Shown here one piece after another: positions 54,034 to 60,464 of a stretch of DNA of 64,000 bases (position 1 is the first letter of the stretch; every line of letters starts with the position of its first letter). The stretch lies in NCBI RefSeq assembly GCF_963921235.1, contig NC_086097.1:6820001-6884000 (forward strand), given 5' to 3'. This DNA is from Mobula hypostoma. Its lineage: Eukaryota. Under the pieces are notes generated by a model. The model ran no database searches. It was not told where the DNA came from and saw nothing but the letters and a program-made list of their open reading frames with translations. Made by a program: the position numbers and the translations under genes.

Positions 54034-55902
54034 TTAAACGCAAACAACAGGAATTCTGCAGATGCTGGAACTTCAAGCAACACACATCAAAGTTGCGGTG
54101 AACGCAGCAGGCCAGGCAGCATCTGTAGGAAGAGGTGCAGTCGACGTTTCAGGCCGAGGCCCTTCGTCTGGACTAAATGAAGGAAGAGTGAGTAAGGGAT
54201 TTGAAAGCTGGAGGGGGAGGGGGAGATCCAAAATGATAGGAGAAGACTGGAGGGGGAGGGATGGAGCCAAGAGCTGAACAGGTGATAGGCAAAAGGGATA
54301 AGAGAGGATCATGGGACAGGAGGTCCGGGAAGAAAGACAAGGGGTGGGGGGGGGAACCAGAGGATGGGCAAGAGGTATATTCAAAGGGACAGAGGGAGAA
54401 AAAGGAGAGTGAGAGAAAGAATGTGTGCATAAAAATAAGTAACAGATGGGGTACGAGGGAGAGGTGGGGCCTTAGCAGAAGTTAGAGAAGTCGATGTTCA
54501 TGCCATCAGGTTGAAGGCTACCCAGACGGAATATAAGGTGTTGTTCCTCCAACCTGAGTGTGGCTTCATCTTTACAGTAGAGGAGGCCGTGGATAGACAT
54601 GTCAGAATGGGAATGGGATGTGGAATTAAAATGTGTGGCCACTGGGAGATCCTGCTTTCTCTGGCGGACAGAGAATAGATGTTCAGCAAAGCGGTCTCCC
54701 AGTCTGCGTCGGGTCTCGCCAATATATAAAAGGCCACATCGGGAGCACCGGATGCAGTATATCACCCCAGTCGACTCACAGGTGAAGTGTTGCCTCACCT
54801 GGAAGGACTGTTTGGGGCCCTGAATGGTGGTAAGGGAGGAAGTGTAAGGGCATGTGTAGCACCTGTTCCGCTTACATGGATAAGTGCCAGGAGGGAGATC
54901 AGTGGGGAGGGATGGGGGGGACGAATGGACAAGGGAGTTGCGTAGGGAGCGATCCCTGCGGAATGCAGAGAGAGGGGGGGAAGGAAAGATGTGCTTAGTG
55001 GTGGGATCCCGTTGGAGGTGGCGGAAGTTACGGAGAATAGTATGTTGGACCCGGAGGCTGGTGAGGTGGTAGCTGAGGACCAGGGGAACCCTATTCCTAT
55101 TTGGGTGGCGGGAGAATGGAGTGAGAGCAGATGTACGTGAAATGCGGGAGATGCGTTTAAGAGCAGAGTTGATAGTGGAGGAAGGGAAGCCCCTTTCTTT
55201 AAAAAAGGAAGACATCTCCCTCGTCCTAGAATGAAAAGCCTCATCCTGAGAGCAGATGCGGCGGAGACAGAGGAATTGCGAGAAGGGGATGGCGTTTTTG
55301 CAAGAGACAGGGTGAGAAGAGGAATAGTCCAGATAGCTGTGAGAGTCAGTAGGCTTACAGTAGACATCAGTGGATAAGCTGTCTCCAGAGACAGAGACAG
55401 AAAGATCTAGAAAGGGGAGGCAGGTGTCGGAAATGGACCAGGTAAACTTGAGGGCAGGGTGAAAGTTGGAGGCAAAGTTAATAAGTCAACAAGTTCTGCA
55501 TGCGTGCAGGAAGCAGCGCCAATGCCGTCGTCGATGTAGCGAAGGAAAAGTGGGGGACAGATACCAGAATAGGCACGGAACATAGATTGTTCCACAAAGC
55601 CAACAAAAAGGCAGGCATAGCTAGGACCCATACGGGTGCCCATAGCTACACCTTTGGTTTGGAGGACGTGGGAGGAGCCAAAGGAGAAATTATTAAGAGT
55701 AAGGACTAATTCCGCTAGACGGAGCAGAGTGGTGGTAGAGGGGAACTGATTAGGTCTGGAATCCAAAAAGAAGCGTAGAGCTTTGAGACCTTCCTGATGG
55801 GGGATGGAAGTATATAAGGGTCTTGGCCTGAAACGTTGACTGCACCTCTTCCTGCAAATGCTGCCTGGCCTGCTGCGTTCACCAGCAACTTTGATGTGTG
55901 TT
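54034..55902 (-). mobile_element. Penelope-like retroelement, 5'-truncated RT + GIY-YIG endonuclease, with inverted partial pLTR
   Basis: ORF 54472-55215 has VIYCIRCSRCGLLYIGETRRRLGDRFAEH (GIY-YIG). ORF 55407-55766 has GVAMGTRMGPSYA and FLRYIDD (RT). The inverted pLTR is 55817-55902. The TSD is ccttgaataagaat (54020-54033) and ccttgaataggaat (55903-55916). Confidence 0.95.
54472..55215 (-). pseudogene. PLE ORF C-terminal part (RT thumb/linker + GIY-YIG endonuclease)
   Basis: 247-aa open stretch with a CxxxxCxxC linker and GIY-YIG motifs; the upstream RT is frameshifted. Confidence 0.85.
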
Positions 55903-56004
55903 CCTTGAATAGGAATAGTTGGATAGCAGTTTGGTCAGAGTTGCTGAGATGGGTCAAAGGGCCTGTTCCTGTGTTGGATAGCTCTCTGATTCTATGATTC
56001 GAAA

Positions 56005-58332
56005 CCTACATGCCTGCAAAACCATTTTACCTGCCGTGGGAGATTTCAGCCATCATTTTGGTAACAGCGTGCATTCCACCTCAGGCCAATGGCACATGGG
56101 CTCTGGATAATCTGAGCAATGTGATCAACAGACATGAAACAAGAAATCCTGATGCCTTCCCCATCATTTTCATGGACTTTAATTGGGCCAGTCTGAGAAA
56201 AATCACTGGATAATTATCAGCAACAGATCGGGTGTAGAACCAGAGGAAGCAACACACTGGACCACTGTTACAGCACCATCAAGAGAGCTTACTGTGCTAT
56301 TCCATTCCCACACTTAGGAAAGTCTGATCACCTGGCTGTACTTCTACTCCCTGAGTATAGGCAGAGACTGAAGACTGCAGCACCAGTAGTGAGGACCAAG
56401 AGGTATGGACAAGGGAAACACAGGAGCGCCAACAGGACTGCTTTGAATCAGTGGACTGGACTGTATTGAGGGATTCATCTTCAAATCTAGATGAGTATGC
56501 TGCTGTTGTCACTGACTTCATTAAAACCTGTGTGGATGAGTGTGTGCCTTCGAAAACTTGCTGTACATACCCAAACCAAAAGCCCTGGATGAATCAGGAG
56601 GTTCTCAGTCCGCTGAGGGCTAGATCTGTGGCATTTAAGTCTGGTGACCCAGGTCAATGCAAGAAAACCAGGTATGACTTGCAGAGGGCTATTTCAAGAG
56701 CTAAGGAGCAACTCCAAGAGAGGTTGGAGGCCACACTGGATGCATATCAACTCTGGCAAGGTTTGCAGGCCATTACTTCTTACAAAGCGAATCCCAACAT
56801 CAGGAATGGCAGTCATGCTTCACTCCCAGACAAGTTCAATGTCTTTTATACTCACTTTGAAAGGGATTATAAAACTACAGTTACGAGGATCCCTGCTTCA
56901 CCTGGCAACCCTGTGAGGCCTGTCCCGAAAGCCGATGTCAGGCTGTCTTTCAGGAGGTTGAACCCTTGAAAGGCTGTAGGCTGCGATGGAGTACCTGGTA
57001 AGGCTCCGAAACCTTGTGCCAACCAACTGGCAAGAGTATTCAAGAACATTTTCAACCTCTCACTGCTATGGTCGGATGTTCCCACCTGCTTCAGAAGGGA
57101 AACAATTATACCACTGCCTCGAAGATTAATGTGGGCTGTCTTAACGACGATCATCCAGTAGCACTCTTATCTATGGTGATGAAATGCTTTTAGAAGTTGG
57201 TCATGACTGGAATCAACTCCTGCCTCAGCAAGGACCTGGACCCAGTGCAATTTGCCTAGGTCTACGGTGGACACAATCCCAATGACTTGGATCACTTGGA
57301 CAAGATGTTAGGTTGCTGTTCATATATTATAACTCAGTATTTAACACCATCATTCCCACAGCCCTCACTGAGAAGCTGCAGAACCTGGGCCTCTGTACCT
57401 CCCTCTGCAATTGGATCCTCGACTTCGCAAACGGAAGACCACAATCTGTGCAGAATGGTTATAACTTCTCCACCCTGTTGGCGATCAACACTAGCGCTTC
57501 ACAAGGAAGTGTGCTTAGCCCACTGTTCTCCTCTCTCTACACCCATGACTGTGTGGCTAGGTATAGCTCAAATGCCATCTATAAATTTGCAGATGATAAA
57601 TTTTTGGCAGAATCTCAGATGGTGATGAGAGGGCATACAGGAGTGAGATATACCAGCAAGTTTAGTGGTATCACAGCAACAATCTTGCACTTAACATCAG
57701 TAAGATCAACGAGCTGATTGTGGAATTCAGAAAGGGCAAGATGAGGGAACACAAACTATAGAGAAGGCAAGGCAGCAGCTATATTTCTTTAGAAGTTTGA
57801 GGAGATTTGATTATCAATGGAGACCATTCTGACTGGTTGCATCTCTGTCTCATATGTGGGGGAGGGGTCCACTGCACGGTATCAAAGTGAACTGCAGAGA
57901 GATGTGAAATTACTCAGCTCCATCTTGGGTACTAGCCTCCATAGTATCTGAGACACCTTCAAAGAGTGGTACCTCCGAAAGGTGATGTCCATCATTAAGG
58001 ACCCCAGCAGTCAGGACATGCCCTCTTCTCATTGTTATCATCAAGGAAGAGGTACAAAAGCCTGAAGGCAGACATTCAGCAATTCAGGAACAGCTTCTTC
58101 CCCTCTGCAATCTGATTTCTAAATGGACATTGTACCCATGAAAACAACCTCACAACTTTTTTGAAATTTCTGTTTTTGCACTACTTGTTTCAATTTAACT
58201 ATTTAGTATACACATATATACTGTAATTCAGCTTTTTTCTATATTTATTGTGTATTGAATTGTACTACTGCCACAAAGTTAACACATGTCATGACATATC
58301 AACATGATATGAAACCTGATTCTAATTCTGAT
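56005..58332 (+). mobile_element. Rex1/Babar-type LINE, degenerate endonuclease-RT
   Basis: ORFs 56010-56213 (PFYLP.E.S, DFN), 56451-56969 (YPNQKPWMN) and 57313-57717 (LCNWILDF, QGSVLSP, KFADD); ATTCTG tail. Confidence 0.9.
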
Positions 58333-59043
58333 TTATATTCTTCTGAATTCCACAGAATGCAGAACCATCCAACTTAATAAGAATATATGAAAAAGAACAG
58401 GAGAAGGCTATTTGGCTTTCATGTCTACTACAACTACAGAAATTTGTAAACTCAGTTAACTCTATCATGGTCACTCACCTCCCCAGCATTAGCCATGATG
58501 GAAAGGCGGAGCAGACTCGCAGGGCTGAATGGCCTAATTCTGCTTCTATGTCTTATGGTCTTGTGACCCTATGGAAATCTTCAAAGAGCGGTGCCTCATA
58601 AAGGTGACATCTATCATTAAGGACTCCCTTCACTCAGGATATGCCATCTTCTCATTGCTACCATCAGGGAGGAATTATGGGAGCCTGAAAACACTCACTC
58701 AATGATTCAGGAATATCTTCTTTTATTACTCATTTCCATCCTGGGAAGAAGTATCTGGCTGTCCACTCGAACTATGCTTCTTATCATCCTGTACATCTCC
58801 ATCACCTCTCATCCTTTTTCACTCCATCCCAGCTGGCTCAACCTTTTCTCATAAGACATGCTCTCTAATCCAGGCAGCATCTCTTCTGCACCCCCTCTAA
58901 AGCTTCCACATCCTTCCTATAACGAGGGGACCAGAATATTCCAAATCGTAAACACAAAATAATCTGCAGATGCTGTTGTCAAAGGAACACTCACAATGCG
59001 CTGGAGGAACTCAGCAGGTCAGTCAGCATCAGTTGAAAAAATT

Positions 59044-59079
59044 AGTCGACGTTTCGGGCTGAAACCCTTCGTCAGGACT
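59044..59079 (-). ncRNA. Minimal type I hammerhead ribozyme motif (PLE-associated)
   Basis: The reverse complement reads AGUC-CUGACGA-A-GGG-uuucag-CCC-GAAA-CGUC-GACU, with all core nucleotides present. Confidence 0.8.
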
Positions 59080-59585
59080 GAAGGAAGAACTTTGGGGAGG
59101 ATTTGAAGAATGCTGGTAGTCGAAAAAATCATTAATTTGAAAGACAACGTGAAACCCGATGCAGATTGGGGGACCGCTTCGTCGAGCACCTCCACTCCGT
59201 CCGCCACAACAGACAGGATCTCCCGGTAGCCACCCACTTCAACTCTGCTTCCCATTCCCATTCAGATATGTCCATACATGGCCTCCTCTACTGCCATGAT
59301 GACGCCAAACTGAGGTTGGAGGAACAGCACCTCATATACGGTCTAGGTAGTCTCCAGCCCTCTGGTATGAACATAGAATTCTCCAACTTCCGGTAATTCC
59401 CTCCCCCTCCCTTCCTCTATCCCTATTTCACATCAGCTCCCTCATAGTTCCGCCTCCTTCTACTACTGCGCATTGTTCTCCTGCCAATCACCTCCCTGCT
59501 TCCCCTCCCCCACCCCTTTGTCTTTCAAATTACTGTTTTTATCAACTACCAGCATTCTTCAAACCCTCCCCAAAGTTCATCCTTC

Positions 59586-59621
59586 AGTCCTGACGAAGGG
59601 TTTCGGCCCGAAACGTCGACT
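59586..59621 (+). ncRNA. Minimal type I hammerhead ribozyme motif (PLE-associated)
   Basis: AGUC-CUGACGA-A-GGG-uuucgg-CCC-GAAA-CGUC-GACU; predicted cleavage 3' of C59617. Confidence 0.8.
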
Positions 59622-60464
59622 AATCTTTTCAACTGATGCTGACTGACCTGCTGAGTTCCTCCAGCGCATTGTGAGTGTTCAATATTCCAAGTGTGATCCA
59701 TTAAAAGTTTCATACAGCTGCGATATTATCTCATGGTTCTTGAATTTAATCACCCAACTAATGAAGACCAATGCACTGTATGCTTTCTTATCTACCCTAT
59801 CAACTTGCGTAGCAACTTTTTGGGATCTGTGGATCACTCTGTTCTTCCGTACTGCTAAGAATTTTACCGTTATCCCCCGTCTTCAAATTCAACCACTTGA
59901 GCGAATCACTTCACACTTTTCTGCATTGAACTCTATCTTCCACATGTCAGCACAGCTCTGCATCTTAACAATGTCCAAGTGTAATATACAACAAACAGCT
60001 ACTCAATCCATCACACCATCAAACTTCCTGGCATTTGCAAAATTACTAATGCACCCTTCCACTTCATCATCCAAATCACTTATGAAAATCACAAAGAATA
60101 GGGGTCCCAGACCTCTGCAGACTACATTCCATCTACTACAACACTCTGGGTTCAGTGGGCAAGCCAATTCTGAATCTATGCAGCCAAGTTTCCTTGAATC
60201 CCATGTCTCCTGACTTTTTGACTGAGTCAATCATGGGGAACTTTGTCAAAAGTTTACTAAAATCCATATACACCACTTTCACTTCTCTTCCTTCAGCAAC
60301 TTCTTTGTCACATCCTCAAAGAACTCAATCAATGAGGCAACCTGTGCGTCACAAAGCCATGCTGAGTATCCCTGATCAGACTATGCTTCTCCAAATACTC
60401 ATAAATCATGTTTCTAAGAATCTTCTTCAATTGTTTGCCCATCACTGATATAAAACTCACTAGA

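What the first reader, a model, noticed from the sequence alone, without database searches (positions are those of the whole stretch)
58945..59680. Penelope element with two intact hammerhead ribozyme motifs in inverted termini
Seen: a 736-bp insertion with a 10-bp TSD and ~160-bp inverted arms. Each arm has a complete hammerhead core: CUGACGA, a 3-bp helix II, GAAA, a GUC site and an AGUC/GACU helix I. Helix III is reduced to the loopless palindrome ACGU. Established: PLE pLTRs carry minimal type I hammerheads that are thought to cleave as dimers through a palindromic helix III. Inference: because the copies are inverted, a transcript from either strand has one sense ribozyme plus its antisense. 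The RNA could fold into a long hairpin that masks the ribozyme, or cleave only by pairing with another molecule. That would make it a strand-symmetric, conditionally self-cleaving or dsRNA-forming cassette.
Basis: partly seen in the sequence, partly recalled or inferred. Interest (0 to 1): 0.75.

Follow-up and report, generated by a model that had tools for sequence, protein, structure and literature searches.

The report
Dead Penelope retroelement copy with hammerheads
This is an ordinary, inactive tail-end copy of a Penelope-like jumping gene, laid down as two head-to-head pieces that each carry the small hammerhead self-cutting RNA motif already known from such elements.

Summary
There is a 736-bp insertion (58945-59680) between 10-bp direct repeats, with 163-nt inverted arms that are 95% complementary. 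Each arm carries a complete minimal type I hammerhead core with a loopless ACGU helix III.

It is a Penelope-like element (PLE). Longer copies of the same family encode a reverse transcriptase and a GIY-YIG-like endonuclease.

The inverted arms are not a designed cassette. They are two 5'-truncated 3' ends laid head to head in one insertion event. One ends with the 40-nt PLE "tail" and the other does not. In 30 related loci, 11 of 11 complete composites show the same one-tail asymmetry and have flanking repeats. Two-strand target-primed reverse transcription from two start sites, reported for a lizard PLE (PMC11167929), explains this.

The motif pattern occurs 89,486 times in this 3.48-Gb genome. 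Same-family copies decay neutrally.

A transcript of the whole element is predicted to fold into one long hairpin that buries the ribozyme. Expression and cleavage could not be tested.

Verdict: real, but of a known kind, with low interest. The scan found similar copies before on other DNA.

The parts
58935..58944 (.). Left copy of the 10-bp target-site duplication AATATTCCAA
   Evidence: family D4, 100% identical, spacing 746
58945..58984 (-). 40-nt PLE 'tail': the extreme 3' end of the minus-oriented copy. The plus-oriented copy lacks it.
   Evidence: Other genomic copies run 40 nt past the window's right-arm end. 24 of 38 same-family ends stop at q193-203 and 14 of 38 at q157-174. 0 of 40 tail positions differ from the family majority.
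58985..59147 (-). Left inverted arm: pLTR 3' region of a 203-nt, 5'-truncated PLE copy on the minus strand (58945-59147 in all)
   Evidence: 6 differences from the family majority
59044..59079 (-). Minimal type I hammerhead motif, minus strand. Core CUGACGA 59075-59069; predicted cleavage 3' of C59048.
59148..59148 (.). Junction of the two 5'-truncated copies: one ambiguous base, at most 2 nt of microhomology
   Evidence: Inverted repeat ends at 59147. Matches of other copies to the right-hand copy begin at query 203-208, mostly 205 = 59149. Read against the L002 unit.
59149..59680 (+). Plus-oriented, 5'-truncated PLE copy (532 nt) that ends at the proximal 3' end, without the tail
   Evidence: 91-97% identity to many genomic copies over query 205-736
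59149..59396 (+). Remnant of the C-terminal end of the PLE ORF (end of the GIY-YIG endonuclease region); stop codon at 59394-59396
   Evidence: Open frame 59136-59396. The same residues end the RT-EN ORFs of L008, L009 and L061. No Pfam hit for the 86-aa piece alone.
59518..59680 (+). Right inverted arm: pLTR 3' region of the plus-oriented copy
   Evidence: 2 differences from the family majority
59586..59621 (+). Minimal type I hammerhead motif, plus strand. Core CUGACGA 59590-59596; predicted cleavage 3' of C59617.
59681..59690 (.). Right copy of the 10-bp target-site duplication

Best explanation
The 736 bp are one dead-on-arrival insertion of an endonuclease-bearing Penelope-like retroelement into a TE-rich stretch.

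How it most likely arose (inferred): the element's endonuclease cut both strands of the target about 10 bp apart, which gives the duplication. Each free 3'-OH then primed reverse transcription near the 3' end of element RNA. The top-strand primer started at the distal start site and made 203 nt, including the 40-nt tail. The bottom-strand primer started at the proximal site and made 532 nt without the tail. The two cDNAs grew towards each other and were joined at 59147-59149. The result is a head-to-head pair whose shared 163 nt look like terminal inverted repeats.

Each arm carries the PLE minimal type I hammerhead because that motif lies 63 nt upstream of the proximal start site in the element RNA. 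In the master element the motif probably acts on tandem or paired transcripts as a dimer and with protein help, as published for other PLEs. In this copy it is a passenger. The copy has no RT, and the family's copies decay neutrally. Any read-through RNA is predicted to fold into a 163-bp hairpin that hides the ribozyme.

Shown here: the anatomy, the family identity, the recurrence of the layout and the predicted folds. Inferred: the priming model, and everything about cleavage.
For: Anatomy:
- Duplication and arms; two intact cores with none expected by chance.
- Other copies extend 40 nt beyond the right arm.

PLE identity from longer same-family copies:
- RVT_1 scores 31.5 bits against a cut-off of 29.6 in L026. 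GIY-YIG scores 18.6 against 22.6 in L008.
- The nearest Atlas cluster carries GIY-YIG, HTH_animal and RVT_1, score 0.98.
- An upstream partial unit runs through hammerhead and tail straight into the 5' coding region in L067 and L071. Element RNA therefore continues past the tail, and insertion 3' ends are internal start sites.

Two start sites: 38 same-family ends fall in two groups, 14 at q157-174 and 24 at q193-203, with none between.

One event per composite: 11 of 11 complete head-to-head pairs in L001-L030 have the tail at exactly one end, and flanking direct repeats of 7-16 bp. If ends were independent at 24/38, about 0.47 per pair would be expected.

Orientation bias: among the first 100 genomic motif hits, close pairs under 1 kb are 8 head-to-head, 2 on the same strand and 0 tail-to-tail (hand count).

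Literature:
- A purified PLE protein cleaves and extends both target strands and starts RT at two internal sites that bound the tail. Its hammerhead is protein-assisted and not needed for insertion in vitro (PMC11167929, main text read).
- An inverted 5'-truncated copy and a 30-40-bp tail at one end are typical (PMC8557442, passages).
- Dual minimal hammerheads 100-700 bp apart on opposite strands have been noted (PMC4209133).

Passenger status:
- The family's copies decay neutrally at non-CpG sites: divergence 0.0132 in the motif against 0.0164 in the rest of the arm. Only 25 of 38 keep an intact core.
- The hairpin fold is -357.5 kcal/mol, z -33.
Against: - Rfam's hammerhead models give no hit even at E<=10, so the ribozyme call rests on a motif descriptor and published features, not on a scored model.
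- No compensatory base changes were seen in helices I or II among the copies examined.
- The nearest-neighbour model puts the active double-hammerhead conformer at -16.3 kcal/mol, against -34.0 for the best dimer fold and -12.7 per monomer. Activity is therefore doubtful without help.
- The GIY-YIG match is below Pfam's cut-off.
- The two-strand priming model comes from a different PLE (Poseidon of Anolis) in vitro. It is inferred here from fossils only.
- The 30 loci were picked as the best matches to this element, so they are one young family and not independent lineages.
- L026 has a lone direct tail upstream as well as a 3' tail, so 'one tail per insertion' is not universal.
Confidence: 0.85

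Rival explanations
1. One reading: the inverted pair is a working unit. It would be a strand-symmetric RNA cassette that either self-cleaves conditionally by pairing with a second molecule, or serves as a dsRNA / small-RNA source.
For: Both cores are intact. The only motif change is in loop 2. The whole-element fold is a long perfect-enough hairpin. The loopless ACGU helix III cannot close within one molecule, so any cleavage must be bimolecular (sequence).
Against: The layout is produced routinely by integration and is described in print. The family's copies decay neutrally and 13 of 38 have lost the core. The 163-bp hairpin would outcompete a 12-bp double-hammerhead assembly: -357.5 kcal/mol against -16.3. 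No promoter was looked for.
Confidence: 0.06
2. Two independent PLE insertions that happen to abut in opposite orientation, one landing next to or inside the other.
For: PLEs are reported to insert into or next to earlier copies (PMC6765202 passages). The genome carries at least 89,486 motif copies, so neighbours are common.
Against: A single 10-bp duplication flanks the composite and none flanks either arm alone. The two pieces abut to the base. 11 of 11 such composites share the one-tail asymmetry and have outer flanking repeats. Close pairs are 8 head-to-head against 0 tail-to-tail.
Confidence: 0.04
3. A fold-back or MITE-like DNA transposon with terminal inverted repeats that merely captured PLE sequence.
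For: It has terminal inverted repeats, a short target-site duplication and a small size.
Against: The ends are unequal, with a 40-nt tail on one side only. The interior is the contiguous 3' part of a PLE ORF and UTR in one orientation. Arm lengths and spans differ from copy to copy, spans 736-1642 bp. That fits random 5' truncation, not a transposase-defined unit.
Confidence: 0.01

Closest known systems
Insertion units of endonuclease-bearing Penelope-like elements: pLTR, adjacent inverted 5'-truncated copy, 30-40-bp tail at one end (PMC8557442 passages)
   Same: 5' truncation, an inverted 5'-truncated partner forming inverted repeats, a 40-nt tail at one end only, a target-site duplication, and a hammerhead in the pLTR.
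   Different: Nothing in kind. This copy keeps no RT and only 86 codons of the ORF. The family's clade was not placed by phylogeny. A CKRKCYTC-type motif in the RT-EN linker suggests the Neptune/Nematis side.
[quoted passage not shown]
   Same: Type I topology, the CUGANGA...GAAA core, an unpaired nucleotide between A9 and G10.1, G10.1-C11.1, a palindromic C15.2-G16.2 with no loop 3, and a short 4-bp helix I. The paper also notes occurrence on opposite strands 100-700 bp apart.
   Different: Helix II is 4 bp with a UUCG loop, against 7-8 bp in the Schistosoma families described there. The most abundant family in this genome has U at 11.1 (about 70 of the first 100 hits, hand count). The intact-pattern count of 89,486 is about ten times the roughly 9,000 quoted there for Xenopus, though with a different descriptor.
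PAc, Poseidon PLE of Anolis carolinensis, characterised in vitro (Frangieh et al. 2024, PMC11167929, main text read)
   Same: RNA continues beyond the insertion's 3' end, so initiation is internal. There are two alternative 3' ends about 40 nt apart bounding the tail. The hammerhead lies just upstream, at the start of the next unit's reading frame. The target is A/T-rich and contains ATT.
   Different: It is a different host and probably a different clade. Nothing was tested biochemically here. In this family N7 is C, so the core holds no AUG. One copy, L071, has CUGAUGA in frame with the downstream ORF but separated from it by a stop.
Twin-priming inversions of LINE-1
   Same: Both target strands prime cDNA, and the products join to give an inverted, 5'-truncated insertion inside one target-site duplication.
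   Different: In L1 the inverted part is an upstream segment of the same RNA. Here both pieces start at the RNA's 3' region, so they repeat each other and form inverted arms.
Non-LTR retrozymes: tandem hammerhead repeats giving circular RNAs (PMC7229834 abstract; bioRxiv 10.64898/2026.07.22.740005, abstract and results read)
   Same: Type I hammerhead derived from PLE pLTR sequence; non-autonomous.
   Different: Retrozymes are head-to-tail tandem repeats. This is a single inverted composite with no tandem hammerhead pair.

Membership tests
Penelope-like element (EN+), insertion unit | Reverse transcriptase ORF in full or longer copies of the same family | tested here: met
   RVT_1 31.5 bits (cut-off 29.6) in L026:66-1508. 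KIHK...PGRPIV and YIDD motifs are visible in the translations. The window copy itself has lost this part.
Penelope-like element (EN+), insertion unit | C-terminal GIY-YIG endonuclease fused to the RT | tested here: inconclusive
   GIY-YIG 18.6 bits, below the 22.6 cut-off, E 0.0024, at residues 384-452 of L008:303-1745. The Atlas top cluster carries GIY-YIG (47% of members), HTH_animal and RVT_1, score 0.98. The 86-aa remnant in the window gives no Pfam hit.
Penelope-like element (EN+), insertion unit | pLTR formed by partial tandem: an upstream partial unit running into the next unit | tested here: met
   In L067 and L071 the 3' part, with hammerhead and tail, continues without a break into about 230 nt and then the 5' coding region. 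This was seen in related loci, not in the window copy.
Penelope-like element (EN+), insertion unit | Inverted 5'-truncated copy at the 5' side, and a 30-40-bp tail at one end only | tested here: met
   Window. Related loci: 11 of 11 complete composites.
Penelope-like element (EN+), insertion unit | Target-site duplication | tested here: met
   10 bp in the window; 7-16 bp in 10 other composites.
Minimal hammerhead of PLE pLTRs (min-HHR) | Conserved core C3 U4 G5 A6 N7 G8 A9, G12 A13 A14, A15.1-U16.1, H17 | tested here: met
   Both arms, read from the sequence. 2 matches against 0 expected.
Minimal hammerhead of PLE pLTRs (min-HHR) | Unpaired nucleotide between 9 and 10.1; G10.1-C11.1; palindromic 15.2-16.2 with no loop 3 (the list in PMC4209133) | tested here: met
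   A59597; G59598-C59609; C59614-G59615. The mirror positions in the left arm match.
Minimal hammerhead of PLE pLTRs (min-HHR) | Helices I and II supported by compensatory changes | tested here: inconclusive
   Only one-sided or disruptive changes were seen among 38 same-family copies, 100 listed genomic hits and 30 aligned loci. Between families, position 2.5 is C or U opposite G or A at 1.5.
Minimal hammerhead of PLE pLTRs (min-HHR) | The motif is kept by selection in master elements | tested here: met
   Between families, motif positions not fixed by the search pattern are 83% identical to the window. Upstream is 30%, downstream 63% and the tail 43% (30 loci; most belong to one other family). 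10 of the arm's 12 CpG positions lie in the 36-nt motif. Within the young family the dead copies show no extra conservation.
Minimal hammerhead of PLE pLTRs (min-HHR) | Self-cleavage at the predicted site | not testable with these tools
   No wet test is possible. No run on record as RNA.
Rfam hammerhead families (type I and others) | Score at or above the family's gathering threshold | tested here: not met
   0 hits at gathering score on the window and 0 at E<=10 on 58900-59750. The likely reason, which is my inference, is the missing helix III stem-loop.
Non-LTR retrozyme | Head-to-tail tandem repeats, each with a hammerhead | tested here: not met
   The two motifs are on opposite strands, and no direct repeat of the arm is present.

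The most novel reading that the evidence does not exclude
Every head-to-head composite carries the tail at exactly one end (11 of 11). This could mean that the two halves of a dimeric PLE particle act in a fixed, coordinated way: one RT starts at the distal site on one target strand and the other at the proximal site on the other strand. The hammerhead's palindromic helix III might then be what pairs the two template RNAs in that particle. If so, the thousands of such composites in this genome would be a natural record of that step. By rough extrapolation, 8 pairs per 100 of 89,486 motif hits gives about 7,000. They could also be a large source of hairpin RNA against PLEs.
Probability: 0.15. 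Interest if true: 0.5.

Novelty: new member of a known kind. Interest (0 to 1): 0.15.

Why it matters
It matters little as a single locus, because it is a correctly recognised but routine fossil of PLE integration. Its modest value is as an in vivo illustration of features measured in vitro for one lizard PLE: cleavage and extension of both target strands, and two internal RT start sites bounding the tail. This genome also holds a very large set of such fossils, 89,486 intact motif patterns, and a specialist could mine them to test how PLE integration is resolved. The case also shows that conservation among dead copies is the wrong test for a transposon-borne ribozyme. CpG decay makes the motif look less conserved than its flanks, while comparison between families shows it is the best-kept block.

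Tried and rejected
- Rfam scan at gathering score and at E<=10 on the region: no hit.
- Pfam on the window's 86-aa ORF remnant: no family.
- Sequencing runs: no RNA holder listed, and all shares are 0.26 or lower.
- Laying four runs: only short contigs of the repeat family, of unknown library kind. None spanned the stretch, so they say nothing about expression, ends or editing at this locus.
- Lunse, Weinberg and Breaker (RNA Biol, PMC5785218) is not held. It was seen only as a citation and through the review PMC6765202 (passages).
- Paper search for Penelope with siRNA, inverted repeat and hairpin: the ten listed titles held nothing specific to PLE hairpins, and none was opened.
- Search for Penelope-like, shark and hammerhead ribozyme: one review listed, not opened.
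- L002, L028, L062 and L065 first looked like a defined short unit with a sharp 5' end. This was rejected, because each boundary was that reference copy's own truncation and other copies continue upstream. The true 5' end of the element was not reached.
- A cDNA snap-back origin of the inverted repeat was rejected. It would duplicate the region around the 5' truncation point at the centre, whereas here the repeated parts are the outer 3' ends.
- No compensatory covariation was found.
- A possible splice donor (GTGAGT at 59670-59675 and its mirror) and an in-frame link between the hammerhead AUG and the ORF were looked at in L067 and L071 and left open.
- Earlier-findings look-up by place: nothing.

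Full report
**What is there.**
- The stretch 58945-59680 is bounded by a perfect 10-bp direct repeat, AATATTCCAA, at 58935-58944 and 59681-59690.
- It contains inverted arms of 163 nt at 58985-59147 and 59518-59680. They are 95% complementary and 370 nt apart.
- The pattern CTGANGAN{11,15}GAAACGTC matches exactly twice in the 64-kb window, once in each arm on opposite strands. None is expected in 100 shuffles.
- The right arm reads: helix I AGUC/GACU (59586-89 / 59618-21); core CUGACGA (59590-96); an extra A (59597); helix II of three G-C pairs plus U.G closed by UUCG (59598-59609); GAAA (59610-13); then C-G-U-C (59614-17).
- Helix III is therefore only the self-complementary ACGU with no loop, and the predicted cut is 3' of C59617.
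- The left arm mirrors this on the minus strand, with C17 at 59048. Its one difference in the motif is in loop 2.
Helix II is 4 bp plus a bulged A. The left-most 40 nt lie outside the inverted repeat.
- Rfam's models do not find the motif, at gathering score or at E<=10.

**What it belongs to.**
- The window lies in a 3.48-Gb, 200-contig genome. The 736 bp have thousands of first-look candidates there (6,160, of which 40 were scored), and the scored matches are 91-97% identical.
- Almost all matches cover query 205-736, the right-hand copy, and continue upstream for variable lengths. This is random 5' truncation.
- Longer copies encode an RT. RVT_1 scores 31.5 bits against a cut-off of 29.6, and KIHK..PGRPIV and YIDD motifs are visible. 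A cysteine-rich linker and a GIY-YIG-like domain follow, at 18.6 bits, below the 22.6 cut-off.
- The nearest Atlas cluster combines GIY-YIG, HTH_animal and RVT_1 at score 0.98, commonest in Chordata.
- The window's open frame 59136-59396 is the last 86 codons of that ORF.
- In L067 and L071 an upstream partial unit runs through the hammerhead and the tail straight into about 230 nt and then the 5' coding region. This is the pLTR-ORF tandem layout of Penelope-like elements.

**The inverted arms are two 3' ends, not terminal repeats.**
- Other copies extend 40 nt beyond the point where the window's right arm stops, and those 40 nt equal the reverse complement of 58945-58984.
- The insertion is therefore a 203-nt minus-strand copy ending with this tail, abutting a 532-nt plus-strand copy that ends without it.
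- Among 38 same-family ends in L002-L030, 14 stop at q157-174 and 24 at q193-203, with none between.
- In L001-L030 there are 11 complete head-to-head composites. All 11 have the tail at exactly one end, and flanking direct repeats of 7-16 bp lie at the outer borders. A twelfth, in L008, runs off the locus and was left out.
- If the two ends were independent at 24/38, one-tail pairs would be about 47% of pairs.
- Among the first 100 genomic hits of the motif pattern, neighbours closer than 1 kb are 8 head-to-head, 2 on the same strand and 0 tail-to-tail (my hand count).

**How this most likely arose.**
- The literature describes this anatomy. PLE insertions often carry an inverted 5'-truncated copy and a 30-40-bp tail at one end only (PMC8557442, passages).
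- Dual minimal hammerheads 100-700 bp apart on opposite strands were noted in 2014 (PMC4209133, whole text).
- A purified lizard PLE protein cleaves and extends both target strands. It starts reverse transcription at two internal sites that bound the tail, and it prefers ATT-containing A/T-rich targets (PMC11167929, main text).
- I therefore read this locus as one integration event. Staggered cuts 10 bp apart were followed by priming from both 3'-OH ends, one at the distal site and one at the proximal site. The two cDNAs were joined at 59147-59149 with at most 2 nt of ambiguity.
- The priming model is inferred from fossils and from another element's biochemistry. It was not shown here.

**The ribozyme.**
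- The motif meets every feature that Cervera and De la Pena list for metazoan PLE minimal hammerheads: the core, the extra nucleotide after A9, G10.1-C11.1, and a palindromic 15.2-16.2 without loop 3.
- A loopless ACGU cannot pair within one molecule, so a monomer cannot form helix III.
- In a nearest-neighbour model the 53-nt monomer prefers a rod in which GACG of the core pairs with CGUC at the cut site (-12.7 kcal/mol). The strand-swapped double-hammerhead scores -16.3, against -34.0 for the best dimer.
- This fits the published low activity and protein assistance. The energy model ignores tertiary contacts.
- The whole element as RNA folds into one long hairpin with the arms paired: -357.5 kcal/mol, against a shuffle mean of -178, z -33. 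In a read-through transcript the ribozyme would be buried.

**Conservation.**
Among the 38 young copies that condition is formally met: divergence from the majority is 0.0365 in the 36-nt motif against 0.0172 in the rest of the arm.
- The excess is entirely CpG decay. 10 of the arm's 12 CpG positions lie in the motif. Non-CpG sites give 0.0132 against 0.0164, and only 25 of 38 keep the core.
- Dead copies evolve neutrally, so this test says nothing about the master element.
- Between families the picture reverses. In 30 loci taken in genome order from the pattern search, motif positions not fixed by the pattern are 83% identical to the window. Upstream is 30%, downstream 63% and the tail 43%.
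- Caveats: those loci were chosen for an intact core, and most belong to one other family. No compensatory pair changes were seen.

**This copy.**
- The arms differ at 8 of 163 positions. The left has 6 differences from the family majority and the right has 2, so the insertion is not recent.
- The neighbourhood is TE-rich. It holds another PLE RT fragment at 55407-55934 (-) and LINE-like ORFs at 56361-57717 (+), plus nine decayed pLTR fragments elsewhere in the window.
- No run on record as RNA holds the stretch, and the contigs laid were uninformative. Expression, cleavage, small RNAs and editing remain untested.

**Comparison and verdict.**
- The object is a member of a known kind: a 5'-truncated, head-to-head PLE insertion with the known minimal hammerhead.
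- Earlier notes of this scan reached the same view for similar copies on other DNA (e1-7788964 and e1-7788970). I read them after forming mine.
- The points of some interest lie outside the locus. The motif count is very large: 44,629 + 44,857 hits against 73 + 73 for the reversed control. The one-tail rule in composites is clean.

Noticed in passing
whole genome G000: The pattern CTGANGAN{11,15}GAAACGTC occurs 44,629 times on the forward strand and 44,857 on the reverse, against 73 + 73 for the reversed control. That is about one intact minimal-hammerhead core per 39 kb, roughly ten times the counts quoted for Xenopus in PMC4209133, which used a different descriptor.
   Followed up: partly
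first 100 hits on G000:C1; L031-L060: The most abundant family differs from the window's. Its helix II reads GGGUCUCGGCCU, which puts U at 11.1 (a G.U in place of the usually conserved G10.1-C11.1) in about 70 of the first 100 hits (hand count). It also has proximal and tail-bearing 3' ends.
   Followed up: partly
L061:2895-3035: A mini-copy of about 130 bp. An inverted piece of the tail (ctgcagatgctgg...) is joined directly to the hammerhead and the proximal end, and the whole is flanked by TAGTTTAAATAACA-like repeats. Window copies at about 11648 and 21055 look alike. L034/L035 is a near-perfect palindrome with two hammerheads 71 bp apart.
   Followed up: no
window 59632-59638 with the tail (sense of 58962-58968); L031-L060: GAUGCUG downstream of the hammerhead and CAGCAUC in the tail are complementary, and both are kept in both families. 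They bracket the proximal 3' end and could form a stem around the RT start site. The sequence is invariant, so there is no covariation.
   Followed up: no
L067 and L071: The long ORF's frame is open from just after the hammerhead through the tail into the N-terminal region. In L071 the core is CUGAUGA, and its AUG is in that frame but is cut off by a TGA 18 codons on. A GTGAGT lies at the proximal end. The start codon and a possible intron were not resolved.
   Followed up: partly
window 55407-55934 (-), 56361-56969 (+), 57286-57717 (+): There is another PLE RT fragment (YIDD motif) and LINE-like RT ORFs just upstream. The insertion sits in a TE-rich stretch.
   Followed up: no
window about 4608, 11648, 17289, 21055, 22102, 29814, 32793, 39739, 54182: Nine older pLTR fragments at 72-84% identity to the arm. 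Most have the hammerhead broken at its CpG sites, for example CGAAACGUC changed to CAAAACAUU.
   Followed up: partly
L024:2406-2940: About six head-to-tail repeats, spaced 88 nt apart, of a roughly 95-nt piece of the PLE coding region (L028 1130-1224) lie next to a truncated copy.
   Followed up: no
L026:102-141: A lone tail segment in direct orientation is joined to the 5' end of a truncated copy that also has a tail at its 3' end. This is an exception to one tail per insertion.
   Followed up: no
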